From NCBI GenBank assembly GCA_903844685.1, contig CAIMUM010000063.1:1-62201 (forward strand): a stretch of DNA of 62,201 nt, written 5' to 3'. Position 1 is the stretch's first letter; every line of letters starts with the position of its first letter. The stretch comes from an uncultured Dehalococcoidia bacterium (GTDB lineage Bacteria > Chloroflexota > Dehalococcoidia > GIF9 > UBA5629). The notes under the pieces are model-generated. The model saw nothing but the letters and a program-made list of their open reading frames with translations, ran no database searches and was not told the origin of the DNA. A program made the translations under genes and the position numbers. Positions 16,174-31,362 of this stretch are shown here, in pieces.

Positions 16174-16842
16174 TTATATCCGGTGATCTTCGCGGATTAT
16201 GACGCGCGGACCGCCGCTCAGGCTGGCGCTCCATTGCTTGGGAGGCTCGATCTTTTCCAGCCTCTCCAGTTGCCCGATGTTTTTCAACCTCTGGTATATC
16301 AGTTGCCAGGCGCAGGGGCGGTCGGGCCTGACCTCGCAACGGTCTTCCCGTGAACCTCCGCAGGGGCCATTCAATAAATGCTTGGCGCAACGCGTGACCG
16401 GGCAGATGCCGCCATACTCGTGCAGCACGCAGGATCCGCACTGGGAACACTTCTCAGTCCAGACGCCCCGTTCTTCAAGTATGCCGAGGAATTTTGTGTT
16501 CAGTCCGGCATAGACCGGCTTCTTGAGGAAACGCTCGGCAATGGCCTGGACACCCGCACCACACCCCAGCGACAGCACCACGTCAACTTTCTCGATAGCC
16601 TCGATAGCCTGCTCGATAAACACGTTGTCGCACTGCCGCTCGATGGTAAGCTCGCTGACCTCGTAACCCAACCCCCTGGCCTTTGATGCTATGCGCAGGG
16701 CCGAAGAGATGATGCTCACCTCACGCTCACCTCCGGCCAGGCAAACGGTCACACAGGTACCACAACCCAGCACCAGTATCTTAGAGTCATTGGGAAGCAT
16801 ATCAAGGAGCTCGGGGATGCTTTTTCTCTCTGCTACTATCAT
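16174..16842 (-). CDS. metV: MetV (methylene-THF reductase C-terminal-domain-like, Cys-rich small subunit)
   Basis: Carries LGCGTCVTVCLAGGE and a CSQCGSCVL..GICPVTRCAKHLLNGPCGG signature typical of MetV/MTHFR_C. Its ATGA start overlaps the upstream mvhD stop. Confidence 0.8.
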   Translation of the reverse strand: MIVAERKSIPELLDMLPNDSKILVLGCGTCVTVCLAGGEREVSIISSALRIASKARGLGYEVSELTIERQCDNVFIEQAIEAIEKVDVVLSLGCGAGVQAIAERFLKKPVYAGLNTKFLGILEERGVWTEKCSQCGSCVLHEYGGICPVTRCAKHLLNGPCGGSREDRCEVRPDRPCAWQLIYQRLKNIGQLERLEKIEPPKQWSASLSGGPRVIIREDHRI

Positions 16843-17288
16843 GGTTTTATCTCCTGTTGAACCCGTGTTTTCGCCCGGTTGAGCGGGCTGGGTCCGAGCC
16901 TCTGCACGGTTTCAGCCATCTCGCGCACATGCTCGGTGAATAAACGCGCCATGGCGGCGCTGACGTTGACCATCTTAAGGCGGTCTGCTTCTAACCCGCT
17001 TTCAGCCAGCAGCTTGCGGGCATAGTTCACACGGCGTTTGGCAATGAGGTTGCCCTCTTTGAAATGGCAGCTTCCTTCCTCGCAGCCGGCAACCAGGACA
17101 CCGTCGGCACCGTTCTCGAAGGCCCTGAGATAATACTCGACTTCCAGCCTGCCGGTGCAGGGTGTACGGATTATCCTCACGTTGGAAGGGTACTGCAGCC
17201 GCATCGAACCGGCCAGGTCGGCCGCCGCGTATGCGCAGTAGATACAACAGAAAGCTACAATGGTGGTTTCTTTATCAGCTGATTTCAT
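16839..17288 (-). CDS. mvhD: MvhD/FlpD-like [2Fe-2S] electron-transfer protein
   Basis: Reads IVAFCCIYCAYAAADLAG..LQYPSNVRIIRTPCTGR..GADGVLVAGCEEGSCHF. It overlaps hdrA by 4 nt. Confidence 0.85.
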   Translation of the reverse strand: MKSADKETTIVAFCCIYCAYAAADLAGSMRLQYPSNVRIIRTPCTGRLEVEYYLRAFENGADGVLVAGCEEGSCHFKEGNLIAKRRVNYARKLLAESGLEADRLKMVNVSAAMARLFTEHVREMAETVQRLGPSPLNRAKTRVQQEIKP

Positions 17289-20200
17289 AACACACCGCTT
17301 TTCTCCGGCGCAACGGCCGGCTGGCTTTCTTCTTTTCCGCTTCTGAATAATTCATCCAGCATATCCTTGAACTGCCTTGATTCGAAATGGTTCAACTGTA
17401 TGGCACAGGCCGGGCATTCTGCCGCGCAGATGCCGCAGCCCATGCACTTGGCAGCGATAATCTCCGCCTTATGGTCGGCATTAACCGTCGGGGCGCCGTA
17501 CGGGCATACCTTGGTACAGGTCATGCAGGAGATGCATTTCTGCTGGTCTACCTGCGAAACCTGTGCCCCGGCCTCCAGGTAAGCTTTGGAGAGCACGGTC
17601 GAAGCACGTGAGGCCGCCGCGCGCGCCTGCGAGATATTTTCATCCATGTGCTTGGGGGAATGCGCCAGCCCGCAGAGGAAAATCCCCTCGGTGGCGAATT
17701 CCACCGGGCGCAGCTTGAGGTGAGCCTCGACAAAAAAACCGTCCGCATTGAGAGGCACTTTCAGCATATCTGCAACGCGCCGGTTATCCCCGGCCGCATC
17801 GACACCGGTACTTAGAACGACACAATCTGTCTCGATCTCGACCGGCTCAGGGAAATCGGGGCTCTTGAGGCTGACAACCAGTCCATTATCCTGTGAGACC
17901 AGCGGCGGGGCATCGGGCTCATAACGTATAAAAATAACCCCTGCTTCACGTGCCTGCTTGTAATATTTTTCACGGAAGCCGTAGGTCCTGATATCGCGGT
18001 AAAGCACGTAGACACTGGCAGACGGGTCCAGTTTCTTTATCTTCAGTGCGTTCTTGACCGCCATGGAGCAGCAGATACGGCTGCAGTAAGGTCTCTCATC
18101 ATTGCGTGAACCGACGCATTGTATCATCACCACATTCCTGCGGCCGGTTGCAAAATCGCCTTTGTGCAGACGCTGCTCCAGTTCAAGCTGTGTGATGACC
18201 CCTTCGTCTTTACCACGCAAGTATTCCCTGGTCGCCGCGGGGGCGGCCCCGGTGGCCACGATTATGGCGCCGCAGGACACTTCGCTGTCCGTGCCGTCCT
18301 GGAAAAGAGAAACCTTGAATTGTCCAATGAAGCCGGCCACATTGGTGACATCTGCCCCGAGATGAAGGACGATGTTCGGATGGTTTTCAACCTCCTTCAC
18401 CAACCCGGCCACAAACGTGGAAACGTCCTCATGCTCGAGGGTATACCTGAGGGTAAGGGCGTTGCCTCCCAGCCTGTCCGATTTCTCCACCAGGTGCACC
18501 TTGAAACCCTGCCCTGCCAGCGCCAGCGCCGCAGTCATGCCGCTGATACCACCACCGATGACGAGACCCGTCTGGTCGACGGCAAACGAGGTCCCCGTGA
18601 GCGGGGATAGCAGCCTAGCCCGCGCGACGGACATCCTCATAAGTTCTGTCGCCTTCTCCGTGGCCTTTTCAGGCTCGGCAGAGTGAACCCATGAGCACTG
18701 GTCCCGGATATTAGCCAGCTCGAACAGGTAGGGGTTCAGCCCGGCCTCGCGCAGCGTGTCACGGAATATGGGCTCATGGGTACGCGGCGTACAGGATGCG
18801 ACCACGATGCGGTTCAGGCGGTGCTTATGTATCATATCCCTGATATTATTGAGATTGGAATCGGCGCAGGTGTACATGGTGTGCGTGGCAAAGACCACGT
18901 TGGGCTGCTGGGCAGCTATCTCCGACACGCGTTCTACGTCAACCACCGAGGCGATGTTCTTGCCGCAGTGGCAGACGAATACGCCTATCCTGGCCTGCTC
19001 GTCAGTCACATCGTGCTCGTCCGGGTAGACCCTTTTGCTTATCAGTGAGTTGCGCGCCTCGGCCAGCAGTTCCATGGACATCGAGGCGGCCGCGCTGGCC
19101 TGTGTCACGGTTTCGGGAATATCCTTGGGCTCCTGGAAGGCGCCCGCCACGAATACACCGGGTCTCGATGTCGATACAGGATAAAGCCGGTCGGTGGCAC
19201 AGAAGCCATACTCATCCAGGCTGATACCCAAACGGCCGGCGGCTTCTCTTGCCGGCTTCCCTGCCTCCATGCCTACGGACAGCACCACCACGTCGAAATC
19301 GCGCTCTTCCATAACCCCGGCGCCGCTGTAGAATTGCAGGCGCAGGTCCTTACTGCCGGGCACCTGCAGGACGCGTGACGGCATGCTCCTGATATAATTT
19401 ATGTTCCCGCTGCTTTTAGCCCTCTCGTAATACTGGTCAAAATCTTTTCCGTGGGCCCGGATATCCATATAGAAAATGGAGGCCTCCAGCCCGGGCTCGT
19501 GATCCGAGGCCACCAGCGCCTGCTTGGTTGAAACCATGCAGCATACCGATGAGCAATACTCGTTGCCGCAACTGGCATCGCGCGACCCCACACACTGTAT
19601 CCAGGCGATGCGCTTTGCCTCCTTTCCGTCGGAGCGGCGAATAACATGTCCCTCGAAAGGACCGGACGCCGAGAGCATCCGCTCGAATTGCACGCTGGTC
19701 AGGACGTTGGCATAGCGGCCGAAGCCGAACTCTCCCTTCTTCTCAGCAGGGAACTCTTCGAACCCGGGGGCAAGTATGACCGAACCTATCTCTAACTTGA
19801 CCTCACGCTGTCCCATGTAATGGTCAATGGCGTTCTGTTCGCAGGCCTTAACGCACTCCTGGCATTCAGAACACAGGGCACAGTTCAGGCAGCGCTCAGA
19901 TTCAGCCAGGGCGGCTTCTTCACTCAGCCCTCCCTCGGTCTCGCTGAAAGTCCCCTGCCGCCGGCTTAGCGGAAGGTATGCCGGCACGGCGCGCGGTCTT
20001 TTCTCTGCACCGGAGATACCGGGAAGAAGTTCCTCGGAAAGTGGTTTGACCGTATCTTCAAAGCGGGAAGCACGCATATCCTCATTCCTGAGATAGCGGT
20101 CGATGGATTCAGCGGCCCGCTTGCCGGCGCCTACAGCCTGTATGATCGAAGCCGGCCCGGATACACTGTCGCCGCCTGCGAAAATGCCTTTTAGCGATGT

Positions 20201-21775
20201 TTCAAGCGTGGCAGGGTCTACTTTGAAGCATCCACGCTCTGTCTCAACCCCGGCGCTGCTGATGAATTGCTTATCCAGCGACTGTCCGATGGCTATTATC
20301 ACCCGGTCTGCCTGCACCGTTGTCAGTGTTTTCTCATCATAAGCCGGGCTGAAACGCCCCTCACTATCAAATACGCTTATACAGCGTTTTAGCTCAATCC
20401 CCGTGGCCTCACCGTTGCCCAGTATGCGGCGCGGTCCCCAACCATTGCTGATCTTGATGCCTTCTTCAAGTGTCTCCGCTATCTCCTCCGGCAGGGCCGG
20501 CATCTCCTGCCTCTGCTCAAGGGAGACCATCTCGACGCTCCCGGCGCCCAGCCTCAGCGCGGTGCGCGCCACATCCACTGCTACATTGCCGCCGCCTATG
20601 ACGACAACTTTTCTTCCGACGGCAGGTAAATTATTCCTGTCACCCGCCTGCCTGAGGAACTCGACGCCATAGTCGATGTTAGATTTATCCTCGCCCTCAA
20701 TACCGAGCCTGCGGCTGACCTGCACGCCCACCCCGATGAAGACCGCATCGTTATCCTCCCATATTCTCGCAAAAGAGATATCTTCCCCTATCCTGCAACT
20801 GTATTTGAATGCGATACCCTTGCGGCGAATGAGCTCAATTTCATAATCAAGTATTTTCTTGGGCAGCCTGTATTCCGGTATGCCCCAGCGCAGCATCCCG
20901 CCCGCCGCGGGCGCCGCCTCGTACACGGTCACCGCATATCCGCGGTCGGCAAGGTCGGCGGCCGCCGTCAGGCCGGCCGGGCCGGCGCCGATTATCCCGA
21001 CTCTCTTCGCGCCGGCCGGAGGTGTTTTTTCTTCCGGCAGGGAGATCCGGCCTGATTCTACCAACTCCATCTCTTTATCCGACGCAAACCGTTTGAGCAG
21101 CCTGATGGCGACGGGGTCGTCCAATTTTCCGCGTGTGCAGACCGCTTCGCAGGGGTGGTTGCAGGCTCGCCCGCATATGGCGGAAAGAGGGTTCCTCTCC
21201 CTTATCAGGTTCACTGCCTTTACGTACTCTTTCTTCTTGATAAGCTGTATATAGCCCTGGACATTAATATTGGCCGGGCAGGTGACCTTGCAGGGCGCGT
21301 GCCCGTTCTTCAAGATATTGAATAGGTTGGGGGTAGCCTGCGCGTAATGCTTGGCGATGGCCTTGCGTGTGCCCAGTTCGCGGTCGAAGTGGTTGGGGAT
21401 ATTCACCGGGCAGGCATCGGTACATTGTGCGCAAGCGGTGCACTTGTCCTCGTCGACGTAACTCGGGTAGCACCGGATGGTGGCCGTGAAGTTGCCGGCC
21501 TCTCCCTGGAGGTCCACCAGTTCAGAAAGAGTGAGCATCTCAATATTGAGGTTGCGCGCGCATTCCACCAGCTTGGGCGATACGATGCAGGTAGCGCAAT
21601 CCCCGGTGGGAAATGTCTTATCCAGGTGCGACATCATGCCGCCGATAGCGGCTGAACGTTCGACCAGGTACACCCTGAAACCGGAGTTGGCAAGGTCGAG
21701 AGCGGCCTGTATGCCGGCGATCCCGCCACCCTGCACCAGAACTGCGCCTGTCTTCTTCTTTTTATCAGCAGTCAT
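17285..21775 (-). CDS. hdrA: 1496-aa fusion: HdrA module split by a GltD/NfnB-like FAD/NAD(P)H module, a Cys-rich thioredoxin-like domain, then a second complete HdrA module with a C-terminal 2x[4Fe-4S] ferredoxin
   Basis: The start is set at ATG 21775 (MTADKKKKTGAVLVQGGGIAGI); the track start at 21898 would overlap hdrB. HdrA signatures occur twice: IQCVGSRDASCGNEYCSSVCC (aa 727-746) and IQCVGSRNDERPYCSRICC (aa 1219-1236). The GltD-like insert spans aa ~155-565 (nt ~20081-21313): CPANINVQGYI..NPLSAICGRACNHPCEAVC, VGIIGAGPAGLTAA, VVVIGGGNVAVD, GIFAGGD. Confidence 0.85.
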   Translation of the reverse strand: MTADKKKKTGAVLVQGGGIAGIQAALDLANSGFRVYLVERSAAIGGMMSHLDKTFPTGDCATCIVSPKLVECARNLNIEMLTLSELVDLQGEAGNFTATIRCYPSYVDEDKCTACAQCTDACPVNIPNHFDRELGTRKAIAKHYAQATPNLFNILKNGHAPCKVTCPANINVQGYIQLIKKKEYVKAVNLIRERNPLSAICGRACNHPCEAVCTRGKLDDPVAIRLLKRFASDKEMELVESGRISLPEEKTPPAGAKRVGIIGAGPAGLTAAADLADRGYAVTVYEAAPAAGGMLRWGIPEYRLPKKILDYEIELIRRKGIAFKYSCRIGEDISFARIWEDNDAVFIGVGVQVSRRLGIEGEDKSNIDYGVEFLRQAGDRNNLPAVGRKVVVIGGGNVAVDVARTALRLGAGSVEMVSLEQRQEMPALPEEIAETLEEGIKISNGWGPRRILGNGEATGIELKRCISVFDSEGRFSPAYDEKTLTTVQADRVIIAIGQSLDKQFISSAGVETERGCFKVDPATLETSLKGIFAGGDSVSGPASIIQAVGAGKRAAESIDRYLRNEDMRASRFEDTVKPLSEELLPGISGAEKRPRAVPAYLPLSRRQGTFSETEGGLSEEAALAESERCLNCALCSECQECVKACEQNAIDHYMGQREVKLEIGSVILAPGFEEFPAEKKGEFGFGRYANVLTSVQFERMLSASGPFEGHVIRRSDGKEAKRIAWIQCVGSRDASCGNEYCSSVCCMVSTKQALVASDHEPGLEASIFYMDIRAHGKDFDQYYERAKSSGNINYIRSMPSRVLQVPGSKDLRLQFYSGAGVMEERDFDVVVLSVGMEAGKPAREAAGRLGISLDEYGFCATDRLYPVSTSRPGVFVAGAFQEPKDIPETVTQASAAASMSMELLAEARNSLISKRVYPDEHDVTDEQARIGVFVCHCGKNIASVVDVERVSEIAAQQPNVVFATHTMYTCADSNLNNIRDMIHKHRLNRIVVASCTPRTHEPIFRDTLREAGLNPYLFELANIRDQCSWVHSAEPEKATEKATELMRMSVARARLLSPLTGTSFAVDQTGLVIGGGISGMTAALALAGQGFKVHLVEKSDRLGGNALTLRYTLEHEDVSTFVAGLVKEVENHPNIVLHLGADVTNVAGFIGQFKVSLFQDGTDSEVSCGAIIVATGAAPAATREYLRGKDEGVITQLELEQRLHKGDFATGRRNVVMIQCVGSRNDERPYCSRICCSMAVKNALKIKKLDPSASVYVLYRDIRTYGFREKYYKQAREAGVIFIRYEPDAPPLVSQDNGLVVSLKSPDFPEPVEIETDCVVLSTGVDAAGDNRRVADMLKVPLNADGFFVEAHLKLRPVEFATEGIFLCGLAHSPKHMDENISQARAAASRASTVLSKAYLEAGAQVSQVDQQKCISCMTCTKVCPYGAPTVNADHKAEIIAAKCMGCGICAAECPACAIQLNHFESRQFKDMLDELFRSGKEESQPAVAPEKSGVL

Positions 21776-21807
21776 ATTACGGTTACCTTTATTGTATTTT
21801 TCACCTT

Positions 21808-22680
21808 TCAGGCTTTCAAGGCCAGGGACTGTAAAACCCCGGCGGGGGAGACCATCAGCCGGTTGAGGCCGAGCTCTTTGGGCGGGATGCCGAGGCACAA
21901 ACCAAGCAATTGCGTTATGTATACGATAGGCATCTCATAGCGCCTGCCCGTTTGCTTTTGCATATCTTTCTGGCGCAGGTCAAGGCTGGCCTGGCACATG
22001 GGGCAGGCCACCGTAATACACCCGGCGCCCGACGCCACAGCCATATCAAGGACTGAACCCGAAAGCTTCACAACCACTTCAGTCCTGGTCAGGTTAAGGC
22101 CTCCTCCGCAACAGTCAACTTTGCCGGGCCAGTCGACGCTCTGCCCACCCATGGCATCTACCAGGCGGTCGAGGATAGTAGGGTTCTCTGCATCGTCAAA
22201 ATGAGTTACATCGTGCGGACGCACCAGCAGGCACCCGTAATAAGCTGCTACCTTCAACCCTCCGAGAGTGTGTGTAAAGCTCTTACGCAGTTTTTCAATA
22301 CCCACGTCTTCGAGCAGTACTTCGACAAGATGCCTCACGGCAACTGAGCCGTCATATGGTTGCCCGACCACGTCGGCTACTCTGGCTCGCATGGCCGGTG
22401 AGGAGGACACCTCGTGGTTTGTCACCTTCATCCGGTTGTAACAAGCCGCGCAGGTGACCACCGTATCAAGCCCCATCTGCTTAGCCAGCAGCATATTGGC
22501 AGCCGGCAGTGAAGCGGCAAGTATCCGGTCGGTCTGGTGTGCGGCAGTTGCCCCACAGCAGGACCATCCCTCAATTTCCACCAGCTCAATACCCAGCTTA
22601 CATGCTACAGCTATGGCCGACTCGTGCATATCACGGGCAGTGGAATGTGACGAGCACCCCGGATAATATGCGTATTTCAT
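21808..22680 (-). CDS. hdrB: Heterodisulfide reductase subunit B-like protein (two CCG domains)
   Basis: Reads YYPGCSSH..WSCCGA and YYGCLLVRP..VDCCGGG. It overlaps hdrC by 4 nt. Confidence 0.85.
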   Translation of the reverse strand: MKYAYYPGCSSHSTARDMHESAIAVACKLGIELVEIEGWSCCGATAAHQTDRILAASLPAANMLLAKQMGLDTVVTCAACYNRMKVTNHEVSSSPAMRARVADVVGQPYDGSVAVRHLVEVLLEDVGIEKLRKSFTHTLGGLKVAAYYGCLLVRPHDVTHFDDAENPTILDRLVDAMGGQSVDWPGKVDCCGGGLNLTRTEVVVKLSGSVLDMAVASGAGCITVACPMCQASLDLRQKDMQKQTGRRYEMPIVYITQLLGLCLGIPPKELGLNRLMVSPAGVLQSLALKA

Positions 22681-23246
22681 TGCTTTTTTCCTTTACCCGG
22701 CATGGCCTTTTCAAAAATGCGCCTTACGGCCTTTTTGTCGGCGCCGGACGGCGGGAGAATGGCCATTTTCCCCTTCTTCAACATGGTGGGGAATTTTTCC
22801 GTATCGCTCATCAACGAGCCGCTCCCGAGCTTGTAGCCGGCGATCATGGACAGGTCGTAGGAGCGTCCGAAAACCCTGACATTGGCCAGGAACATGCGGT
22901 TAAACAGTGGCATGTTGCCTTCAGGCACTTTGGATCCCCTGGCCAGGGCCAAACTGCGCAGGGCATCGATAACCGCAGCGAAATTTATCTGCATCGGGCA
23001 GCGGCCGTAGCAGGTTTCGCAGGAAAGGCACATCCACACCAGGCCGTTCTCCAGGAGCTCGTCCCCAGCCCCCAGGTGCAACCTCCTGATAATCTCCGAC
23101 GGCGCCGACTTCGCCGGTCCGGCCACCGGACAGCCTGCGGAGCATTTCCTGCACTGGTAACAGGCGTCTAAGCTGACGCCGGACATCTCTTCTACAATCG
23201 CCTTGAGGCCAGTCCCCTTTGCTACTTTGTTAATTCTTATCGTCAT
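22677..23246 (-). CDS. hdrC: Heterodisulfide reductase subunit C-like protein (2x[4Fe-4S])
   Basis: Reads CYQCRKCSAGCP and CLSCETCYGRCP. Confidence 0.85.
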   Translation of the reverse strand: MTIRINKVAKGTGLKAIVEEMSGVSLDACYQCRKCSAGCPVAGPAKSAPSEIIRRLHLGAGDELLENGLVWMCLSCETCYGRCPMQINFAAVIDALRSLALARGSKVPEGNMPLFNRMFLANVRVFGRSYDLSMIAGYKLGSGSLMSDTEKFPTMLKKGKMAILPPSGADKKAVRRIFEKAMPGKGKKQ

Positions 23247-25924: not shown

Positions 25925-27501
25925 CTGGCCTGCTCCGTATCGTTGCTGTAATCAAGATGCATGAGGAGGTCGGTGCGGCCCCGCAACTCGCTGACCCTGC
26001 GCATACCGAACCTGCGCAGTATCTCTACCAGTTCGATACGCCAGGCGTTATAAAGGTTGATTATCCGTTGTGAGCCCCATTCGACCGTGTACTGCCCCTG
26101 CAGTTCCGCGTCCGTGGTAGCTATGCCGCGCGGGCAGCCCCGTCCGCTTTCACAGCGTGCGCAGCGCAGACATCCCAAAGCTACCAGTTCACCGGTCCCG
26201 ACAACTACGCCGTCCGCGCCGAGGGCGATGGCCTTGGCTATATCATGAGCATTCCTCAACCCGCCGCTGGCTATCAGTGTTATCCTGTCGCGCACACCTT
26301 CACGGGTCAAGAAATCGTGCACTTTGATAATGGCATATTCAATGGGCATAGCGATGTTTTTCTTGGCTATATCCGGTGCGGCGCCGGTGCCGCCGTAACC
26401 GCCGTCCAGGTGAACGATATGCGCTCCGGCTGAATAGCTGCCCACGGCAACCATATCAACATCCGACGGGGTCGAAACCTTGGCTGAGACCAGGGCATGC
26501 CGGTTGATATGCTTTATCCAGTCCATATGTTTCTTATGGTCTTCGATAGAATAAACGCTGTGAAAGGGGAAAGGTGAAAATAGCGAGATGCCGGTAACCG
26601 TTTCCCTCATCCTGGCCACGGATGGTGTGACCTTATCCGCCAGCAGGTGGCCTCCCAAACCCGGTTTGGCGCCCTGCGCGTATTTGAATTCCACGATCCG
26701 CACGCGCTGGATGGTCTCCTCCCGCACACCAAATAACCCCGTGGCAACCTGTGTGATAGTGTGGTCGTCGTAAGGCCTCAGACGCTCCATGTACCCACCT
26801 TCCCCTGTACAGGTAAAGGTGTTGAAGGCCACGGCAGCGCTTGCCTTGGACAGCTGCGTAACGTTGCTCACCGACCCGTACGACATGCCGCCTCCATACC
26901 AGGGCACATCGATTTTGATCTGCGGCCTCCCGTCGTTTCGACGGTTAAGCTCCAGGCTAGTGTCGATATCGTCCGGGCTCAATTCAACCGGCGGCCTGGC
27001 AGGAAATTTAAACCTGATACGGTCAAATCCTCCGCCGGAATTGCCGCATTCATATTCATACCCATACTCGGGCGGAGGAGGAGCGCCCGTCTCGGCCATC
27101 TTCCATGTAGCCAGTATCAGGTCAGGCGTCCAGCGGTAATCGCCCAGCACCTTCATCATGGGATTTTCCACCATGCGCAGCGCCTTATTCGGGCATAAAT
27201 CTACACAATAATGGCCGGTGTCCTTGCAGGCCGGGCCGATACACACATTCTGGTGAGGGGCAGCGAAGTATTTATAGCCCGGCTTGAGAACGTGCACACC
27301 CTGAGGGCATATCTCGGCGCATTTGCCGCATAGCTTGCAATCGGCGCTGCGCCTGATAATATATTTCGCGATCTCATTGCGGTAGCGCGGCGGGGCCGGT
27401 TTAATTACGCGTTGAACCTCCGCCTGCGGCACCATAGTCTCGAGTATACTATCCGGAAGACCTTCTTTAATTATTTTTTCTGGAACCAAAGAGCTTGCCA
27501 A
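25921..27501 (-). CDS. Glutamate synthase FMN/synthase-domain subunit with an N-terminal 2x[4Fe-4S] ferredoxin domain (archaeal split-GltB type)
   Basis: Ferredoxin motifs: CKLCGKCAEICP and CVDLCPNKA. Synthase motifs: KYAQGAKPGLGGHL, LDGGYGGTGAAP, ASGGLRN..GADGV, CLRCARCESGRGCP. The start is uncertain; TTG 27501 lies 6 nt after GAGGAGG, while the track start is TTG 27525. Confidence 0.8.
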   Translation of the reverse strand: MASSLVPEKIIKEGLPDSILETMVPQAEVQRVIKPAPPRYRNEIAKYIIRRSADCKLCGKCAEICPQGVHVLKPGYKYFAAPHQNVCIGPACKDTGHYCVDLCPNKALRMVENPMMKVLGDYRWTPDLILATWKMAETGAPPPPEYGYEYECGNSGGGFDRIRFKFPARPPVELSPDDIDTSLELNRRNDGRPQIKIDVPWYGGGMSYGSVSNVTQLSKASAAVAFNTFTCTGEGGYMERLRPYDDHTITQVATGLFGVREETIQRVRIVEFKYAQGAKPGLGGHLLADKVTPSVARMRETVTGISLFSPFPFHSVYSIEDHKKHMDWIKHINRHALVSAKVSTPSDVDMVAVGSYSAGAHIVHLDGGYGGTGAAPDIAKKNIAMPIEYAIIKVHDFLTREGVRDRITLIASGGLRNAHDIAKAIALGADGVVVGTGELVALGCLRCARCESGRGCPRGIATTDAELQGQYTVEWGSQRIINLYNAWRIELVEILRRFGMRRVSELRGRTDLLMHLDYSNDTEQAR

Positions 27502-28876
27502 AGGTCGCCTCCTCAAGGTCTTCAAAGAATAGGGCCCGGCCTACTTCACCACGCAGGCGGCGGACCTCGCGTATGCCCATGGCTCCCATGACCTCGATCA
27601 ACTGGTCGTGCCATGCAGCAATCAGATTTGTCATGCGCCCGACACCGTACTTGATATCTATCTCCCCGATCAGCGCCGGGCATGACTGGCCGTCATTACA
27701 ATCACGGCAAAGCGTGCACTCCAGGGCTATTAATAATGGCAGGTTGATAGTTACCAGGTCGGCGCCGCAGAGGATCTGCTTGGCCATATGCTCGGCCAGG
27801 GCTATGCCACCGCCTGCCATCAGAGTTACCTCGTTCCTTAACCCGCTTTCCACCAGCGAGTTATGCACACTGCGCACCATGTCCTTGATAAAACGGGGGT
27901 TTTTTTCTCCGATCTCGTTACCGTTATCATCGGCTACCAGGTGCAAAACCTCGACAAACGGTTGGCGGGCATATTCGACTGCGCGTTCAATCCCTCCGGA
28001 ATCCATTTCCACCCTGACCGCAACCACTATGCCGGGGTTTATTTGCTTCAGTTCACGTACGCGCCGTTCCGCGTTTCCGTCGTCGCTTATCTCTACCAAT
28101 CTCATCCCGGTAAGCAATTCACGGCCGGGCAGGGGTGCGGAGGCATCGAGATAAATCGCCAGGTTAGGCAGGTATTGATCAAGGTCATTGCCCGCTAACT
28201 GCCAGTCTTTAGAATCGATAATGGCGATGACGCCTGTCTGCGCCGCCACTATTTTAATAACAGGCAGCAGGTTGGGAAGCCGGTAGCCGCGGGGCAGCAT
28301 ATCGATAATCATGGGCATCGGTATATCCACCAGCGGCGGCAGACCGCCGGCCGGGTTGCCTGCATCGAAGTGGAGCAGGGCGGGTTTTCTGCCGATGTCC
28401 ACAGCCGTGCTGATATACTCGCGCCCATGTATCCCGTCACGGGTAGGGCGCACGATCTCCGACATATCGGTCCACATCGAATCGAAGCCCAGGCCGGAAA
28501 ATCGCCCCCGGTATCCCGCGCCAGAAACCGGTATCTTGGCTGATTCCGCCTGCGCCCAGGTCGTTTCAATTATCTGGGGTGTCCAATATGTATTGCCAAG
28601 CCGCTCATACACAGGGTTGGCCGACAGTGCCAGCAGCCCCTTGGTACATTGCTGCACGCAGGAGAAGCAGCCCATGCACTGGAAGAACACGGCATCCATC
28701 TCACGAAGCCCGCGGATGTACGACATCTCTTCCCTGTAGCGGTCGAAAACGCAGGCTTTCTTAACGCAGTTATGGCAGTTGGCGCAATCTTCGCGCCAGT
28801 CCACCACGCCGATTTTGCCGATACGCGGCCGGCGCGGGGGGATGGGTTGAGTTTTGATGTGATATTTATCCGGCAT
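27467..28876 (-). CDS. Degenerate paralogue of the GltS FMN-domain subunit, with an N-terminal Cys-rich ferredoxin-like region
   Basis: Cys-rich region: CANCHNCVKKAC and CMGCFSCVQQC. The C-terminal part, AGGGIALAEHMAKQILCGADLV..CTLCRDCNDGQSCP, parallels the neighbouring subunit. The QGAKPG.GG substrate/FMN loop is not recognisable. Confidence 0.65.
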   Translation of the reverse strand: MPDKYHIKTQPIPPRRPRIGKIGVVDWREDCANCHNCVKKACVFDRYREEMSYIRGLREMDAVFFQCMGCFSCVQQCTKGLLALSANPVYERLGNTYWTPQIIETTWAQAESAKIPVSGAGYRGRFSGLGFDSMWTDMSEIVRPTRDGIHGREYISTAVDIGRKPALLHFDAGNPAGGLPPLVDIPMPMIIDMLPRGYRLPNLLPVIKIVAAQTGVIAIIDSKDWQLAGNDLDQYLPNLAIYLDASAPLPGRELLTGMRLVEISDDGNAERRVRELKQINPGIVVAVRVEMDSGGIERAVEYARQPFVEVLHLVADDNGNEIGEKNPRFIKDMVRSVHNSLVESGLRNEVTLMAGGGIALAEHMAKQILCGADLVTINLPLLIALECTLCRDCNDGQSCPALIGEIDIKYGVGRMTNLIAAWHDQLIEVMGAMGIREVRRLRGEVGRALFFEDLEEATFGKLFGSRKNN

Positions 28877-28891
28877 AGGTATTTACCTTAT

Positions 28892-29794
28892 TCAAATCGC
28901 CGCTGAAATAAGCGCGGGTACAACAGTCTCGTTGCCTCCCGAAAATATGTGTATACCGCGCAGGCCCGGCAAACCCTTAAGCTGCTTGATTATCCCGGCG
29001 CAGATAGCCATGCCCTCCTTGAGCTGCGCCTCTTCATTTCCGGCAGATTCCAGGCGGGAGATCACCTCATCCGGTATATTGAAATCCGTGAAGGTTCCAT
29101 TCAATTTCTTCGCTTCAGCCGCTCCGGTCAGTGGCAACACGCCCGCCAGAATGGCAACTTTTTCGGTGAGGCCTTCGCCGCGGGCCGTCTCAAGCCACCG
29201 TTTGAATTCTTCAATATCAAATACGGCCTGCGTTTGAATGAAGGATGCCCCGGCCTTCACTTTCTTCTTAAGGCGGATAATATTAAGTTCCAGCGGCTTA
29301 AGGTAAGGATTGGCAGCAGCCCCCGCCAGCATAGAAAAAGCCCCCTCGATCTTAGTTCCGTCCAGCAGCAAACCCTCGTCGCACATTTTTTTTACCGTCG
29401 CGATGAGCTGGATTGAATCTATATCAAAGACGTTGGCGGATTCAGGGCAACCTACCAGTGCCTGATGATAGCCGGAAAGGCACAGCACGTTTTTTATACC
29501 CAGGGAGGCCGCTCCCAGCAGGTCGGACTGCAGTGCAATGCGGTTCCTGTCCCGCGTAACAACCTGGTAAACTGGTTCAATTCCGGCGCGGCCCAATATC
29601 ACCGATGCGGCAAGGCTGGACATGGCCACACCGTAATGGTTATCAGCCACATTCACCGCAACAGGGCCATTTTTAAATATACGGGCGCAGTCTTCAACTA
29701 TTTGCGTACCCGTGCCGGTCCGCGGCAGGTATTCCGCCGTGACAATAAACTCTTTACCGCCTATCTTATTGGCCAGTGCGCTATCAGGTTTCAT
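28892..29794 (-). CDS. metF: Methylenetetrahydrofolate reductase (acetogen-type MetF)
   Basis: 300 aa. Reads FIVTAEYLP..VNVADN..VYQVVTRDRNRIALQSDLLGAASLGIKNVLCLSGYH, with a typical MTHFR TIM barrel. Confidence 0.85.
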   Translation of the reverse strand: MKPDSALANKIGGKEFIVTAEYLPRTGTGTQIVEDCARIFKNGPVAVNVADNHYGVAMSSLAASVILGRAGIEPVYQVVTRDRNRIALQSDLLGAASLGIKNVLCLSGYHQALVGCPESANVFDIDSIQLIATVKKMCDEGLLLDGTKIEGAFSMLAGAAANPYLKPLELNIIRLKKKVKAGASFIQTQAVFDIEEFKRWLETARGEGLTEKVAILAGVLPLTGAAEAKKLNGTFTDFNIPDEVISRLESAGNEEAQLKEGMAICAGIIKQLKGLPGLRGIHIFSGGNETVVPALISAAI

Positions 29795-29831: not shown

Positions 29832-30260
29832 TTACTCTTTATCCAGCTCTAATTCATCGCCCGCATATGCCTTGCGGGGTGAGGCTTTTATCCTCCTGCG
29901 GAAATCCTCCACCTCTTTCTTGATTTGATCGATGCCGCCATCACCCATCTGCATCATGACCATCCTCCCTTTACCCAATCCAATCTCTTCAAGCAGTGCG
30001 TCCACTGCTGACACCCTCTTCTCAGCCCGAAGGTTACCTTCCAGGAATTGGCATTCACCTTTTTTACAGGTAATCACCGCCACCCCATCCGCACCGCTTT
30101 CAAAGGCCTTGGTTAAGTAGAGGATGTCGATCTTGCCGGAACACGGCAGCGGTATAATCCTCAGTTCATCCCCGTTGCCGTTATTACCCGGCGCCAGCTC
30201 GAGCGGATCAAAGCTGGTTGAACAGCACAAGAGATTGATCTTAACTTTACTATTATTCAC
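29832..30260 (-). CDS. Second, divergent MvhD/FlpD-like protein
   Basis: Reads INLLCC....RIIPLPCSGKIDILYLTKAFESGADGVAVITCKKGECQF. It aligns with the 16839..17288 product, but the first Cys motif is CCSTS rather than CCIYC. Confidence 0.7.
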   Translation of the reverse strand: MNNSKVKINLLCCSTSFDPLELAPGNNGNGDELRIIPLPCSGKIDILYLTKAFESGADGVAVITCKKGECQFLEGNLRAEKRVSAVDALLEEIGLGKGRMVMMQMGDGGIDQIKKEVEDFRRRIKASPRKAYAGDELELDKE

Positions 30261-30282: not shown

Positions 30283-31296
30283 TTAAACCGTTTTTATTTT
30301 ATAAAGTTCCTCGAAGGGGACGAAATTTTTGTATTCAATCAAGGCGCTCATGGCGTGCGATTCCACTTCTATCCCGGCCTCCTGGACGGCGGCCAACGGG
30401 TTCAGGCCGCCGATTACTACCATGCCTGCCCGCCCCGGCTCAACCGGCATCTCGCAGACAGGCTCACTAACACCGCCGATAATAAAGATGCCGTTCATAC
30501 CGGCTTTATTAAGCTTCAAGGAGATATCCCCTGCCTTCGGACGGCAAATTGCCGGTATCTCGTGGAAATTTGCCAGCAGGCTGCCCTGGCCGTTTTTTAC
30601 AACCTGCCCAACCGAAGTCATTTTGGCCTTTATAAAGACCTCGGCCGGGTCAAGGGAGCATCCGGTGTAATGTATTAAATCCACAAATCTCCAGGGTTGG
30701 TGGCCCCACATCTGCAGCAACCCGCCAAACCTGGCATTCACAGGAACGCAGGCCCTCAGCAACGCACCGTTCACTACTATGCTGCATACCGTGACCAGTG
30801 CTGCGGTGTCCTCCGGGACCATAATATCGCCGATTTGTTCACCGCTGCGGGCCTCCATAACCAGGCGGCTTGCACATAGACGCGCCGAAAATACGGGCGC
30901 CATAATCTGCAGCGCCTTCTTGAAATCCCGCCTCCGTATAAACGATACATTCACCGGCACCAGCCCCGCCCGTTTATCAGCATCGAATGTGGTCAGGACC
31001 GCTAACTGCTCTATCCTTGTAATGGAGAAGCCCACTTTTTCCTTGACCATTCCCTGCTTGAGCTCCTTGAGTCCGAGTTGTGTGATCTGCCTGCCATCGC
31101 GCCGGCCTGCCAGGTGCGTCAACCCGTTATCATCGGTAACCTTCAGGTGATATCGCACCGCCCGCTGACCCAGGTCAACACCCAGATCACGAAGCTTGCG
31201 CGCAATCACTATCGAACCCAAAGGCTGCGGCGAGTTTGCCAGCACCTTGAGGATGCTAAAGGTCTTTTTCTCCACGTTCTGCGTAGTGAATGTCAT
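30283..31296 (-). CDS. nrpR: NrpR-family regulator (winged HTH plus two DUF128 domains), homologue of the archaeal nitrogen repressor
   Basis: Reads FSILKVLANSPQPLGSIVIARKLRDLGVDLGQRAVRYHLKVTDDNGLT, followed by two NrpR-type domains. I moved the start to ATG 31296 because a consensus promoter (31334-31362) lies inside the longer track ORF. Confidence 0.75.
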   Translation of the reverse strand: MTFTTQNVEKKTFSILKVLANSPQPLGSIVIARKLRDLGVDLGQRAVRYHLKVTDDNGLTHLAGRRDGRQITQLGLKELKQGMVKEKVGFSITRIEQLAVLTTFDADKRAGLVPVNVSFIRRRDFKKALQIMAPVFSARLCASRLVMEARSGEQIGDIMVPEDTAALVTVCSIVVNGALLRACVPVNARFGGLLQMWGHQPWRFVDLIHYTGCSLDPAEVFIKAKMTSVGQVVKNGQGSLLANFHEIPAICRPKAGDISLKLNKAGMNGIFIIGGVSEPVCEMPVEPGRAGMVVIGGLNPLAAVQEAGIEVESHAMSALIEYKNFVPFEELYKIKTV

Positions 31297-31333
31297 ATTA
31301 CTATTATAACGGCTTATGGAAGCCAGTTGCCGT

Positions 31334-31362
31334 ATTATAGCAACAGAATGAGGCGCTGTCAA
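31334..31362 (-). promoter_or_regulatory. Perfect consensus sigma70 promoter in front of nrpR and the operon
   Basis: Minus strand: TTGACA (31362..31357), a 17-nt spacer, then TATAAT (31339..31334). Confidence 0.7.

What the first reader, a model, noticed from the sequence alone, without database searches (positions are those of the whole stretch)
16174..31362. 15-kb operon interleaving a MetFV-HdrABC-MvhD methylene-THF reductase set with a complete split glutamate-synthase module set
Eleven same-strand genes run from a consensus promoter (31334-31362) to a hairpin (16096-16127). Junctions are either 4-nt ATGA overlaps or gaps under 40 nt. The order is nrpR-like, mvhD-like, metF, GltS-TIM paralogue, Fd-GltS(FMN), GATase-GXGXG, hdrC, hdrB, hdrA-gltD-hdrA, mvhD, metV.

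In the characterised Moorella thermoacetica-type enzyme, the metF, metV, hdrABC and mvhD genes are contiguous with no glutamate-synthase genes among them, and the physiological second electron partner of that complex is unresolved. Here three GltS-like genes sit between metF and hdrC. The fourth GltS function, the beta-subunit-like FAD/NAD(P)H module, is physically inserted into HdrA.

So every functional module of glutamate synthase and of a Hdr-type flavin-based bifurcating MTHFR is encoded in one apparently translationally coupled unit. My hypothesis is a super-complex that couples methylene-THF reduction (C1 assimilation) to 2-oxoglutarate/glutamine chemistry (N assimilation). Alternatively, the GltS-like proteins may be recruited as an electron-input or electron-output arm of the Hdr core. 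I know of no described enzyme with this composition.
Basis: partly seen in the sequence, partly recalled or inferred. Interest (0 to 1): 0.85.

Follow-up and report, generated by a model that had tools for sequence, protein, structure and literature searches.

The report
Glutamate synthase wired to Hdr/MetFV module
A tightly packed 11-gene operon joins a divergent, split glutamate synthase to a heterodisulfide-reductase/MetFV electron module; the same gene set recurs in anaerobes of at least eight bacterial phyla, I found no paper describing it, and it may link nitrogen assimilation to energy-saving electron bifurcation.

Summary
Eleven minus-strand genes (nrpR, mvhD-like, metF, two GltS-type Fe-S/TIM-barrel genes, a GATase/GXGXG fusion, hdrC, hdrB, hdrA with an NfnB/GltD-type insert, mvhD, metV) run from a perfect sigma-70 promoter to a strong hairpin. 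Four junctions are ATGA overlaps and six are gaps of 15-37 nt.

The juxtaposition is not a chance insertion. Of 80 species-level genomes encoding the 885-aa GATase/GXGXG protein, 38 carry the full ten-gene set, collinear in nearly all, across at least eight phyla. Eleven carry a short form (mvhD, metV, metF and the three GltS-like genes) without Hdr. Twenty-eight are cut by contig ends.

- Recurrent neighbours are nitrogen-assimilation genes (amtB, glnK, glnA, carAB, nrpR, canonical gltBD) or genes on the route to 2-oxoglutarate. No recurrent neighbour family was a C1 gene.
- In the window and in 34 of 38 Hdr-containing clusters, MetF has lost the pterin-binding Asp (E. coli D120; Tyr109 here). 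All 11 short forms keep it.
- The HdrA insert is a generic Nfn/GltD-type NAD(P)H module.
- Bacterial giant proteins fuse the same GltS-like trio to a GlcD-type dehydrogenase.

Best reading: a modular glutamate synthase with MetFV/MvhD/Hdr as its electron-input, possibly bifurcating, module.

The parts
31404..31427 (.). Bidirectional terminator-like hairpin (10-bp stem, T-runs on both sides). It insulates the operon from the upstream gene at 31458-31823.
31334..31362 (-). Sigma-70 promoter: TTGACA, 17-nt spacer, TG-n-TATAAT (12/12, extended -10).
30283..31296 (-). nrpR-like regulator (winged helix + NRD1/2 domains). The likely start is the ATG at 31296; the mechanical ORF extends to the TTG at 31362.
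   Evidence: Pfam HTH_12 7e-17 and NRD1_2 7e-76. nrpR is adjacent to the cluster in L004, L043, L045, L061 and L077 as well.
29832..30260 (-). mvhD2: a second, more divergent MvhD/FlpD-type putative [2Fe-2S] connector protein.
   Evidence: Pfam FlpD 7e-27. Conserved next to metF in 32 of 38 full loci.
28892..29794 (-). metF-like flavin TIM-barrel protein. The Glu28 and Gln183 equivalents are kept. The Asp120 equivalent is Tyr109 (motif CLSGYH) and the Phe223 equivalent is Leu.
   Evidence: Pfam MTHFR 4.5e-31; alignments; census.
27467..28876 (-). gltTIMp: an N-terminal domain with two 4-Cys [4Fe-4S]-type motifs plus a GltS-like FMN-type TIM barrel. It carries a C-x2-C-x2-C-x5-CP motif but lacks the AQGAKPG and GGTGA motifs. 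It is probably the counterpart of the GltS central domain and/or an electron-relay subunit.
25921..27435 (-). gltFMN: a two-[4Fe-4S]-type domain plus the glutamate-synthase FMN/synthase domain. It has AQGAKPGLGGHL, GYGGTGAAP and a 4-Cys cluster motif. The likely start is the ATG at 27435.
   Evidence: Pfam Glu_synthase 1e-89; 5e-54 to A. brasilense GltB residues 857-1170; motif census.
23267..25924 (-). 885-aa fusion. It comprises a ~34-aa propeptide, an Ntn (class II) amidotransferase domain with invariant Cys35 (EEGG|CGV) and the N261-G262 pair, a helical linker (~470-570), and a GXGXG beta-helix (~580-860).
22677..23246 (-). hdrC-like subunit with two [4Fe-4S]-type motifs.
21808..22680 (-). 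hdrB-like subunit with two complete CCG (noncubane cluster) motifs.
   Evidence: Pfam CCG x2; TIGR03288 1e-61 and SdhE-type 2e-57, both below the curated cutoffs; 2 x CCG in 53 of 53 loci.
21791..21819 (-). Sub-consensus promoter-like site (TTGAAA-17-TACAAT, 10/12) inside the 3' end of hdrB. It is a possible internal promoter for hdrA-mvhD-metV and is unverified.
17285..21775 (-). hdrL: a tandem HdrA carrying an NfnB/GltD-type FAD/NAD(P)H + 2x[4Fe-4S] module inserted at about residues 159-642. The second Rossmann motif is GGGNVA (GxGxxA). The likely start is the ATG at 21775.
16839..17288 (-). mvhD: canonical MvhD/FlpD [2Fe-2S] connector.
   Evidence: Pfam FlpD 3e-48
16174..16842 (-). metV: Cys-rich partner subunit of MetF-type reductases.
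   Evidence: Pfam PF12225 3e-38. No relative in the PDB.
16096..16127 (-). Strong stem-loop (15-bp stem, TTTC-type loop) 47 nt after the metV stop. It has no T-tract and is the probable operon end.
   Evidence: Not called by the terminator scan.

Best explanation
The operon encodes one multi-subunit iron-sulfur flavoenzyme. Its catalytic output is a divergent, split glutamate synthase (GOGAT). The other proteins are its electron-supply module.

Shown:
- The three GltS-like proteins form a conserved unit: the Fe-S/TIM 'central-like' subunit, the Fe-S/FMN synthase subunit, and the Ntn-amidotransferase/beta-helix fusion.
- In different lineages this unit is attached to different redox modules: (a) MvhD+MetV+MetF alone, (b) the same plus HdrC-HdrB-HdrL-MvhD, as in this window, or (c) a GlcD-type FAD dehydrogenase with Fe-S domains, sometimes fused into a single 2,200-3,150-aa polypeptide.
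- Its recurrent genomic company is nitrogen assimilation and 2-oxoglutarate supply.

Inferred mechanism for the window:
1. The amidotransferase is self-processed at Gly34|Cys35, hydrolyses glutamine, and channels NH3 to 2-oxoglutarate at the FMN subunit.
2. The resulting 2-iminoglutarate is reduced by FMNH2.
3. Electrons enter as NADPH at the Nfn/GltD-type insert of HdrL.
4. The HdrA flavin splits each electron pair. One electron goes downhill through the HdrC/HdrB, MvhD, MetV/MetF and GltTIMp clusters to the GltS FMN. The other goes uphill to ferredoxin. The large free-energy drop of the GOGAT reaction would thus be partly conserved as reduced ferredoxin.
5. In this clade MetF has lost its pterin-binding Asp, so it probably acts as a flavin/electron relay rather than as a methylene-THF reductase.
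6. NrpR places the unit under 2-oxoglutarate/nitrogen control.
For: Conservation as a unit:
- At least 593 species genomes encode the 885-aa protein.
- In the best 80 loci there are 38 full clusters, 11 short clusters, 28 truncated by contig ends and 3 other. Wherever enough flanking DNA was held, Glt, Met or Hdr genes lie alongside.
- The clusters span Chloroflexota, Verrucomicrobiota, Planctomycetota, Desulfobacterota, Myxococcota, Spirochaetota, Bacteroidota and Ignavibacteriota.
- Component identities co-vary with the 885-aa protein (Spearman 0.61-0.86).

GltS character of the core:
- The FMN subunit aligns to GltB residues 857-1170 at 5e-54 and keeps KxAQGAKPG, GGTGA and the cluster motif.
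- The 885-aa protein has invariant EEGG-C35-GV and H260-N261-G262.
- Its AF2 model (pTM 0.75) hits GltS alpha subunits best (7mfm_G, 7e-11), then the GlmS, PurF and AsnB Ntn amidotransferases.
- The barrel of the TIM paralogue hits the GltS alpha barrel best.

Rosetta-stone fusions:
- GlcD-like + Fer4 + central-like TIM + Glu_synthase + GATase + GXGXG occur in one polypeptide in Brocadiia and other uncultured bacterial MAGs.
- An unfused version exists without MetFV or Hdr.

Nitrogen and 2-oxoglutarate context:
- amtB in 6 loci, PII in 5, glnA in 4, carA in 4, carB in 3, Ntn- and class-I GATases, and sigma-54/GAF activators.
- nrpR in 6 loci including the window.
- Canonical gltBD plus a GAF-ANTAR regulator adjacent in L010.
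- Aconitase and a LeuA/HMGL-type synthase adjacent in distant family members.

MetF as relay:
- D120 is replaced by Y, F, A or L in 34 of 38 full clusters (one not readable) and by His in four of the permuted Desulfobacterales loci. It is D in 11 of 11 short forms.
- D120N cripples folate catalysis in E. coli (PMC11094777). Asp120 is listed among four essential residues (PMC11868366).

NAD(P)H input:
- The insert matches NfnB-type modules.
- HdrA matches 5odc_A at 7e-179.

Operon structure.
Against: - No biochemical, transcript or complex-level data exist. Every electron path is inferred.
- Canonical gltBD sits beside the cluster in L010, so in that genome it is not the only GOGAT and may do something else.
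- The GATase domain does not hit the GltS-type Pfam model PF00310, and the GXGXG domain scores closer to FwdC.
- The synthase motif has His where canonical GltS has Gln: GGHL against GGQL in 61 of 64 loci.
- HdrB keeps both catalytic CCG motifs. This suggests an additional, unidentified (disulfide-type?) substrate that the model does not use.
- MetF is retained and conserved even where the Asp is lost. Three full clusters (L061, L064, L069) keep the Asp, so folate chemistry may persist.
- I could not check whether the active Moorella MetF itself has the Asp.
- No methanogen-type NrpR operator lies at the promoter.
- Taxonomic labels come from MAG records.
- The confident AF2 regions exclude the catalytic loops.
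Confidence: 0.45

Rival explanations
1. One reading: a dual-acceptor super-complex. One Hdr-type bifurcating core reduces both methylene-THF (at MetFV) and 2-iminoglutarate (at the GltS core), physically coupling C1 and N assimilation.
For: metF and metV are retained in every full and short cluster. The Glu28 and Gln183 equivalents are conserved in MetF. Three full clusters and all short clusters keep the Asp. The Moorella-type MetFV-HdrABC-MvhD complex is an MTHFR whose second acceptor is unknown (PMC5736913, PMC7325909).
Against: The window's MetF lacks the pterin-binding Asp (Tyr109), as do 34 of 38 Hdr-containing clusters. No recurrent Wood-Ljungdahl or folate genes appear among the neighbour families, whereas nitrogen genes recur. 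Many hosts (Verrucomicrobiota, Bacteroidota, Planctomycetota) are not known acetogens (own knowledge), so MTHFR flux there would be small.
Confidence: 0.2
2. Carrier-free coupling: MetF works as a methyl-THF dehydrogenase that feeds electrons through MetV and MvhD directly to the GltS core (CH3-THF + 2-oxoglutarate + Gln -> CH2-THF + 2 Glu). This would be the ancestral function, seen in the short form. In the Hdr-containing form, NADPH input has replaced it.
For: The short form contains exactly six proteins and no NAD(P)H module, and it always keeps the MetF Asp. In the parallel family branch the trio is fused to a GlcD-type substrate dehydrogenase of similarly 'awkward' potential. MTHFRs that run in the oxidative direction with an unknown acceptor exist (S6MTHFR, PMC11868366). 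From standard potentials (own knowledge), about -200 mV for CH3/CH2-THF against about -140 mV or higher for 2-OG+NH4+/Glu makes the reaction feasible.
Against: Both GltS-type subunits carry N-terminal ferredoxin-like domains that could simply accept electrons from ferredoxin. Stoichiometric use of methyl-THF for every glutamate seems costly outside methyl-oxidising organisms. This reading does not explain the window's own Asp-less long form.
Confidence: 0.15
3. The GltS-like trio is not a glutamate synthase. It is a related amidotransferase/FMN enzyme acting on another substrate, for example an N-methylglutamate-synthase-like enzyme or another 2-oxoacid aminating enzyme.
For: The GATase and GXGXG domains are divergent. 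The synthase motif has Gln replaced by His. Canonical gltBD coexists next to the cluster in L010. No curated NCBIfam model reaches its cutoff. Split GltS-like trios with other functions exist, such as N-methylglutamate synthase MgsABC (own knowledge, not tested here).
Against: The context is ammonium assimilation and 2-oxoglutarate supply: amtB, glnK, glnA, nrpR, aconitase. The best sequence and fold matches are bona fide GltS. The Lys and Arg of the 2-oxoglutarate site motif are retained (residue roles from memory).
Confidence: 0.12
4. Co-regulated but separate enzymes: an archaeal-type ferredoxin-dependent GltS and a MetFV-Hdr enzyme share an operon without forming a complex.
For: Operon membership alone does not prove association. 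A 10/12 promoter-like site precedes hdrA. Both GltS-type subunits have their own ferredoxin-like input domains.
Against: The genes are interleaved rather than in adjacent blocks: metF and metV sit at opposite ends, with two mvhD connectors. This order is conserved across phyla, and also in circularly permuted form. Components co-vary in divergence. Fusion proteins show that the trio does attach covalently to dehydrogenase/Fe-S modules in another branch. MvhD in the Hdr-less short form has no HdrA partner to serve.
Confidence: 0.1

Closest known systems
MetFV-HdrABC-MvhD methylene-THF reductase of Moorella thermoacetica (Mock et al. 2014; described in PMC5736913, PMC7325909, PMC6085437)
   Same: MetF, MetV, MvhD, HdrB (2 x CCG), HdrC and a tandem-type HdrA are all present. 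NAD(P)H is the presumed donor and the second redox partner is unresolved.
   Different: Three GltS-like genes are interleaved. There is a second MvhD. HdrA carries an Nfn/GltD-type insert. metF and metV lie at opposite ends of the operon. MetF lacks the Asp120 equivalent. The context is nitrogen assimilation rather than the Wood-Ljungdahl pathway.
Glutamate synthase: bacterial NADPH-GltS (GltBD; PDB 1ea0, 2vdc, 6s6s, 7mfm) and split archaeal-type GltS
   Same: An Ntn amidotransferase with an N-terminal Cys exposed by propeptide removal; an FMN synthase barrel with the AQGAKPG and GGTGA motifs; a GXGXG beta-helix; and a pyridine-nucleotide Fe-S flavoprotein module of the GltD family present in the same unit. 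As in archaeal forms (own knowledge), the FMN subunit has an N-terminal ferredoxin-like domain and the domains are separate genes.
   Different: GATase and beta-helix are fused on one 885-aa protein without the FMN domain. The central domain is replaced by a separate Fe-S-bearing TIM paralogue. The cluster motif has 4 Cys instead of the 3-Cys [3Fe-4S] motif. The synthase loop has His for Gln. The GltD-like module is embedded in HdrA. MvhD, MetFV and HdrBC are extra.
HdrL of Desulfobacterium autotrophicum (PMC2702500); type III HdrA (PMC12054007); HdrA-NfnB fusions HdrA9-11 of ANME-1 (PMC9012536)
   Same: HdrA carries an inserted GltD/NfnB-type NAD(P)H domain and is followed by mvhD.
   Different: Those loci are associated with dsr, fdh or other genes. 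No GltS-like trio or MetFV is described with them.
GlcD-type dehydrogenase-GltS-like giant fusion proteins
   Same: They have the same three GltS-like modules in the same order and are 31-37% identical to the 885-aa protein.
   Different: The electron-input module is a GlcD-like FAD-linked oxidase plus Fe-S domains instead of MetFV/MvhD/Hdr, all in one polypeptide. They are also undescribed as far as I could find.
Type 4 MTHFR (S6MTHFR, Sphingobium; PMC11868366)
   Same: It is a precedent for a MetF-family flavoprotein that does not use NADH, works as a methyl-THF dehydrogenase, and needs an unidentified electron acceptor.
   Different: It is a single-subunit aerobic enzyme with all four catalytic residues conserved and no Fe-S partners.

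Membership tests
Glutamate synthase (GOGAT) catalytic core | Class II (Ntn) glutamine amidotransferase domain with an N-terminal catalytic Cys and an Asn-Gly oxyanion pair | tested here: met
   Cys35 in EEGG|CGV and H260-N261-G262 are invariant in 23 diverse and 31 further homologues. Counting from Cys35, the Asn-Gly pair falls at positions 227-228, as I recall for GltS. The fold matches GltS alpha and GlmS/PurF. Caveats: the GltS-specific Pfam model PF00310 does not hit, and propeptide cleavage is inferred.
Glutamate synthase (GOGAT) catalytic core | FMN-binding synthase barrel with the 2-oxoglutarate/iminoglutarate site motifs | tested here: met
   Pfam Glu_synthase 1e-89. 5e-54 to A. brasilense GltB residues 857-1170, with KxAQGAKPGxGG and GGTGA conserved. 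Deviation: GGHL instead of GGQL in 61 of 64 loci.
Glutamate synthase (GOGAT) catalytic core | [3Fe-4S] cluster motif (3 Cys) next to the FMN | tested here: not met
   Both TIM-barrel subunits carry C-x2-C-x2-C-x5-CP, with four Cys. This suggests a [4Fe-4S] variant.
Glutamate synthase (GOGAT) catalytic core | C-terminal GXGXG beta-helix and central domain | tested here: inconclusive
   GXGXG is present (5.7e-14) but scores closer to FwdC in the PDB. The central domain is represented only by a separate Fe-S/TIM paralogue with a weak Glu_syn_central hit (7e-4).
Glutamate synthase (GOGAT) catalytic core | Catalyses 2-oxoglutarate + glutamine + 2e- -> 2 glutamate | not testable with these tools
   There is only contextual support: nitrogen-assimilation and 2-oxoglutarate-supply neighbours.
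Moorella-type MetFV-HdrABC-MvhD methylene-THF reductase | MetF with the catalytic/pterin-binding residues of MTHFR (E. coli Glu28, Asp120, Gln183, Phe223) | tested here: not met
   Glu21 and the Gln are present. Asp120 is replaced by Tyr109 and Phe223 by Leu. The Asp is absent in 34 of 38 full clusters. Residue roles are from PMC11094777 and PMC11868366. I could not check the Moorella sequence itself.
Moorella-type MetFV-HdrABC-MvhD methylene-THF reductase | MetV, MvhD, HdrA, HdrB (2 x CCG) and HdrC subunits present | tested here: met
Moorella-type MetFV-HdrABC-MvhD methylene-THF reductase | Six genes contiguous, hexaheteromeric composition | tested here: not met
   Three GltS-like genes and a second mvhD are interleaved, giving ten structural genes.
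HdrL / type III HdrA | GltD/NfnB-type NAD(P)H-FAD-2x[4Fe-4S] module inserted into HdrA, followed by mvhD | tested here: met
   Fer4_20 + Pyr_redox_2 at residues ~199-592 of the 1537-aa ORF. PDB matches to NfnB, NfnA(Bfu) and GltD for residues 159-642 and to HdrA for the rest. mvhD overlaps the stop codon.
NrpR nitrogen repressor | Winged-helix + NRD1/NRD2 domains | tested here: met
   Pfam HTH_12 7e-17 and NRD1_2 7e-76
NrpR nitrogen repressor | GGAA-N6-TTCC operator at the regulated promoter (methanogen paradigm, own knowledge) | tested here: not met
   There are five matches in the window, against about 1 expected, but none at the operon promoter. Bacterial operators may differ.

The most novel reading that the evidence does not exclude
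These clusters define a widespread, undescribed class of modular glutamate synthases in anaerobes. In it, the strongly exergonic GOGAT reaction serves as the high-potential arm of flavin-based electron bifurcation (NADPH -> ferredoxin + 2-iminoglutarate) in the Hdr form. In the Hdr-less and GlcD-fused forms it serves as a direct electron sink for 'awkward-potential' dehydrogenations (methyl-THF, 2-hydroxyacids). Nitrogen assimilation would then conserve energy or regenerate oxidised C1 carriers.
Probability: 0.3. Interest if true: 0.9.

Novelty: new variant of a known kind. Interest (0 to 1): 0.78.

Why it matters
If the complex works as inferred, three things follow.

1. Glutamate synthesis, the main entry of nitrogen into biomass, would be coupled to ferredoxin reduction or to C1-carrier oxidation in many energy-limited anaerobes. 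These include peat, sediment and aquifer Dehalococcoidia, Verrucomicrobiota, Planctomycetota, Desulfobacterota and Bacteroidota. That would change energy and redox budgets in models of these organisms.

2. It offers a concrete lead on a long-standing question: what Hdr-linked MetFV complexes pass electrons to. Here the conserved partner is a GltS-like core.

3. It shows that 'metF' in such clusters cannot be read as evidence for a methyl-branch reductase. The pterin-binding Asp is missing in most Hdr-linked copies. This matters for Wood-Ljungdahl pathway calls in MAG studies.

The six-gene short form is small enough for direct heterologous testing.

Tried and rejected
- Methanogen-type NrpR operators (GGAA-N6-TTCC). 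They are enriched in the window (5 against about 1) but none is at the operon promoter, and the adjacent genes are unrelated to nitrogen: TsaB-like, MetRS, FtsH and others. Dropped.
- Riboswitches or other RNAs. Rfam at gathering threshold finds only the SRP RNA at 50804-51065.
- Solved structures of the complex. There are none. MetV has no PDB relative, and the 885-aa protein hits only FwdC and the Fd-GltS C-terminus weakly.
- Curated naming. No NCBIfam model reaches its cutoff for any of the ten cluster proteins scanned (HdrL was not scanned).
- Literature. Nine full-text searches found HdrL, HdrA-GltD fusions and MetFV-Hdr clusters, but no gltS-like genes within them. The Mock 2014 and Bertsch 2015 papers are not held. 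I therefore could not check whether the characterised Hdr-linked MetF has the Asp.
- Structure of the TIM paralogue. The model is poor (pLDDT 57.5; residues 1-186 below 50), so only the barrel could be compared.
- 'The cluster is the organism's only GOGAT' was considered and not adopted. L010 has canonical gltBD alongside, and whole genomes could not be inspected.
- 'The flanks of the window explain the function' was rejected. The neighbours are a two-component system, an Mg-ATPase, an RNase R-like gene and an MFS transporter.

Full report
**1. What is in the sequence**

The Pfam assignments are:
- NrpR: HTH_12 + NRD1_2.
- A divergent MvhD/FlpD protein ('MvhD2').
- MetF: MTHFR, 4.5e-31.
- A 469-aa protein with a ferredoxin-like domain and a weak Glu_synthase match (9e-14; 'GltTIMp').
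- A 504-aa protein with a ferredoxin-like domain and a strong Glu_synthase FMN domain (1e-89; 'GltFMN').
- An 885-aa protein with a weak class-II GATase match and a GXGXG domain.
- HdrC.
- HdrB, with two CCG domains.
- A ~1,497-aa HdrA with an internal Fer4_20/Pyr_redox_2 module.
- MvhD.
- MetV (PF12225).

The promoter at 31362-31334 is a 12/12 TTGACA-17-TATAAT with an extended -10 TG. It is the only perfect match in 17 kb. A bidirectional terminator hairpin lies just upstream.

With ATG starts for nrpR, gltFMN and hdrA, the junctions are four ATGA overlaps and six gaps of 15-37 nt.

The downstream hairpin at 16127-16096 has a 15-bp stem but no T-tract. Internal terminator-like hits are at chance level. 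A 10/12 promoter-like site precedes hdrA, so an internal promoter cannot be excluded.

The flanking genes are unrelated to the cluster: a two-component system, an Mg-ATPase and an MFS transporter. Rfam finds no riboswitch.

**2. Is the juxtaposition a one-off? No**

The 885-aa protein has more than 7,600 database relatives. The closest (96%) is from a Chloroflexota MAG. A scan of one genome per species found at least 593 genomes encoding it.

I ran tblastn with all eleven window proteins against the 80 best loci:
- 38 loci carry the full set mvhD2-metF-gltTIMp-gltFMN-GAT/GXGXG-hdrC-hdrB-hdrL-mvhD-metV, in that order in nearly all.
- Several Desulfobacterales loci carry a circular permutation of the same order.
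- 11 loci carry a short form with no HdrCB or HdrL: mvhD, metV, metF and the three GltS-like genes.
- 28 loci are cut by contig ends but are consistent with these forms.
- 3 loci are 'other'.

By record title, the full loci come from Chloroflexota, Verrucomicrobiota, Planctomycetota, Desulfobacterota (Smithella, Syntrophorhabdus and others), Myxococcota, Spirochaetota, Bacteroidota and Ignavibacteriota.

Component identities co-vary with that of the 885-aa protein (Spearman 0.61-0.86). Inter-gene spacing stays short. The block therefore behaves as one inherited and horizontally transferred unit.

**3. The GltS-like proteins**

GltFMN:
- It aligns to A. brasilense GltB residues 857-1170 at 5e-54.
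- It keeps KxAQGAKPGxGG, GGTGA and the cluster loop. The loop has four Cys (C-x2-C-x2-C-x5-CP).
- It has GGHL instead of GGQL, and this holds in 61 of 64 loci.

GltTIMp:
- It matches only the C-terminal half of the barrel (2e-5).
- It lacks the substrate motifs but keeps the 4-Cys loop and two N-terminal 4-Cys motifs. It also has an invariant block at residues 115-164.
- The confident part of its model, the barrel, matches the GltS alpha barrel best.

The 885-aa protein:
- It is extraordinarily conserved. Mean column identity is 68% across phyla.
- EEGG-Cys35-GV, HNRGNGKGGG, HQRxPTKGRVWHPGGAHPF and LVHNGDFANY are invariant.
- Counting from Cys35, the Asn-Gly pair falls at 227-228. As I recall, that is the GltS numbering. 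It suggests a GltS-sized Ntn domain exposed by removal of a ~34-aa propeptide.
- Its AF2 model (pLDDT 71.8, pTM 0.75) matches GltS alpha subunits best (7mfm_G at 7e-11; also 6s6s_A and 1ofe_A). The GlmS, GFAT, PurF and AsnB amidotransferases follow.

Divergence from canonical GltS:
- PF00310 does not hit, and the GXGXG part is closer to FwdC than to GltS in the PDB.
- No NCBIfam model reaches its cutoff.
- An exhaustive phmmer search of 1.84 billion representatives returns only 1,470 hits. The family is compact and canonical GltB is not reached.

**4. Rosetta-stone evidence**

Among those hits are bacterial proteins of 2,200-3,150 aa; the named ones come from a Brocadiia and an Omnitrophota MAG. 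The fully resolved architecture (P0392; the others agree where their domains were detected) contains, in order:
- a GlcD-type FAD-linked oxidase;
- Fe-S domains;
- a central-like TIM domain;
- the Glu_synthase FMN domain;
- the GATase;
- GXGXG.

An unfused operon version also exists, with no MetFV or Hdr: GlcD+Fer4+TIM, then Fer4+FMN, then GAT/GXGXG.

Two conclusions follow. The three GltS-like proteins are one physical unit. That unit is plugged into alternative flavin/Fe-S modules in different lineages.

**5. Context says nitrogen, not C1**

I clustered the ORFs flanking the 80 loci. The recurrent neighbours are:
- amtB (6 loci), PII (5), glnA (4), carA (4) and carB (3);
- Ntn-type and class-I amidotransferases;
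- sigma-54/GAF activators;
- nrpR, in the window and five other loci.

In L010 a canonical gltB (GATase_2 at 4.5e-171), gltD and a GAF-ANTAR regulator lie next to the cluster. More distant family members sit next to aconitase or a LeuA/HMGL-type synthase.

None of the recurrent flank families I examined or annotated was a Wood-Ljungdahl or folate gene.

**6. MetF is unusual**

The window's MetF has Tyr109 where E. coli MTHFR has Asp120 (motif ALRGD against CLSGY). The Glu28 and Gln183 equivalents are kept. Phe223 is Leu.

Asp120 hydrogen-bonds the pterin. The D120N mutant raises Km more than 40-fold and drops kcat to 0.3% (PMC11094777). Asp120 is one of four residues listed as catalytically essential (PMC11868366).

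Across the loci the pattern is as follows:

| Form | Residue at the D120 position |
|---|---|
| Full clusters (38) | 28 Y, 4 F, 1 A, 1 L, 3 D, 1 not readable |
| Permuted Desulfobacterales loci | mostly H (four of six) |
| Short forms (11) | 11 D |

The Asp is therefore lost where Hdr is present and kept where Hdr is absent. This undermines 'methylene-THF reduction' as a function of this particular operon. It suggests that once the Hdr/NAD(P)H module is present, MetF is a flavin relay.

Caveat: I could not obtain the Moorella MetF sequence to confirm that an active Hdr-linked MTHFR keeps the Asp.

**7. HdrA**

Residues 159-642 match Nfn-type modules: 9n5u_A at 7e-101, and NfnB 4ylf_B at 6e-77. 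These are better than the match to GltD (3.5e-52). The remainder matches HdrA 5odc_A (7e-179) in four stretches.

This is the HdrL / type III HdrA architecture. It is already known in contexts unrelated to GltS (PMC2702500, PMC12054007, PMC9012536). It should not be read as 'the GltS beta subunit'.

The second Rossmann motif is GGGNVA (GxGxxA). By the rule quoted in PMC12054007 this hints at NADPH.

HdrB keeps both CCG motifs in 53 of 53 loci. An unidentified HdrB substrate remains possible.

**8. Interpretation**

I favour (0.45) a modular GOGAT:
- The GltS-like trio is the nitrogen-assimilating catalytic output.
- MvhD, MetFV and, in this window, HdrCB-HdrL are its electron-input module.
- NADPH enters at the Nfn-type insert.
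- Possibly, flavin-based bifurcation sends electrons to ferredoxin and to 2-iminoglutarate.

Shown: the conservation, the modularity, the motifs and the context. Inferred: every electron path, the propeptide processing, and the bifurcation.

Rivals:
- Carrier-free methyl-THF:2-oxoglutarate coupling as the short-form and ancestral function (0.15).
- A non-GOGAT amidotransferase/FMN enzyme (0.12).
- Mere co-regulation without a complex (0.1).

**9. Novelty**

Nine full-text searches found no description of gltS-like genes within MetFV/Hdr clusters, or of the GlcD fusions. The library is incomplete, so prior description cannot be excluded.

All modules belong to known families. The combination, its breadth and the Asp-loss pattern are new. 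I rate it a new variant of a known kind, with high interest.

Noticed in passing
P0268, P0290, P0315, P0322, P0386, P0392 (database proteins); L081; L085:4877-12313; L086: There are giant (2,200-3,150 aa) bacterial proteins (named examples: a Brocadiia and an Omnitrophota MAG). The fully resolved one (P0392) fuses a GlcD-type FAD-linked oxidase, Fe-S domains, a central-like TIM domain, a Glu_synthase FMN domain, a GATase and GXGXG. There is also an unfused three-gene version. All appear uncharacterised.
   Followed up: partly
L085:8214-8642 (and L086:4131-4559): A Y1-type (IS200-like) transposase gene sits between the GlcD-TIM fusion gene and the FMN-subunit gene of that operon, on two independent contigs.
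   Followed up: no
L010:1264-9596: Canonical gltB (1,518 aa), gltD, a GAF-ANTAR regulator and an HTH-cupin regulator lie divergently next to the GAT/GXGXG-hdrCB cluster of a Desulfobacterales MAG. Two GltS-type systems therefore sit side by side.
   Followed up: partly
window 4325-6394 and 6792-8891 (+): Two large paralogous proteins (689 and 699 aa) each have an ice-binding-protein-like domain (NCBIfam IBP_CFB, 2e-28 and 2e-65, both below the cutoff).
   Followed up: no
window 50804-51065 (-): Bacterial large SRP RNA (Rfam RF01854, 187 bits).
   Followed up: no
window 21182, 48985, 54948, 59763, 62093: GGAA-N6-TTCC palindromes occur five times against about one expected. None is at the operon promoter, and the neighbouring genes are not nitrogen-related.
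   Followed up: yes
window 21791-21819 (-): A 10/12 sigma-70-like site lies inside the end of hdrB, 16 nt upstream of the hdrA start. It is a possible internal promoter for hdrA-mvhD-metV.
   Followed up: no
L057:5046-7804; L068:12520-15467: These are intermediate cluster forms. An HdrA-like gene plus mvhD follows the GltS/MetFV genes without detectable hdrC or hdrB. Both contigs end there.
   Followed up: no
L001:5122-5487, L004:678-1043, L049:665-1015, L005:1992-2297: A small RRM-domain RNA-binding protein with a Gly/Arg-rich tail recurs upstream of the cluster, about 160-180 nt upstream in three Chloroflexota loci and 3.4 kb upstream in one Verrucomicrobiota locus.
   Followed up: no
window 60990-62054 (-): The ORF matches only the C-terminal half of class-I methionyl-tRNA synthetase (profile positions 203-391) plus the anticodon domain. 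The N-terminal part must lie in another frame or start further upstream, near the window end.
   Followed up: no
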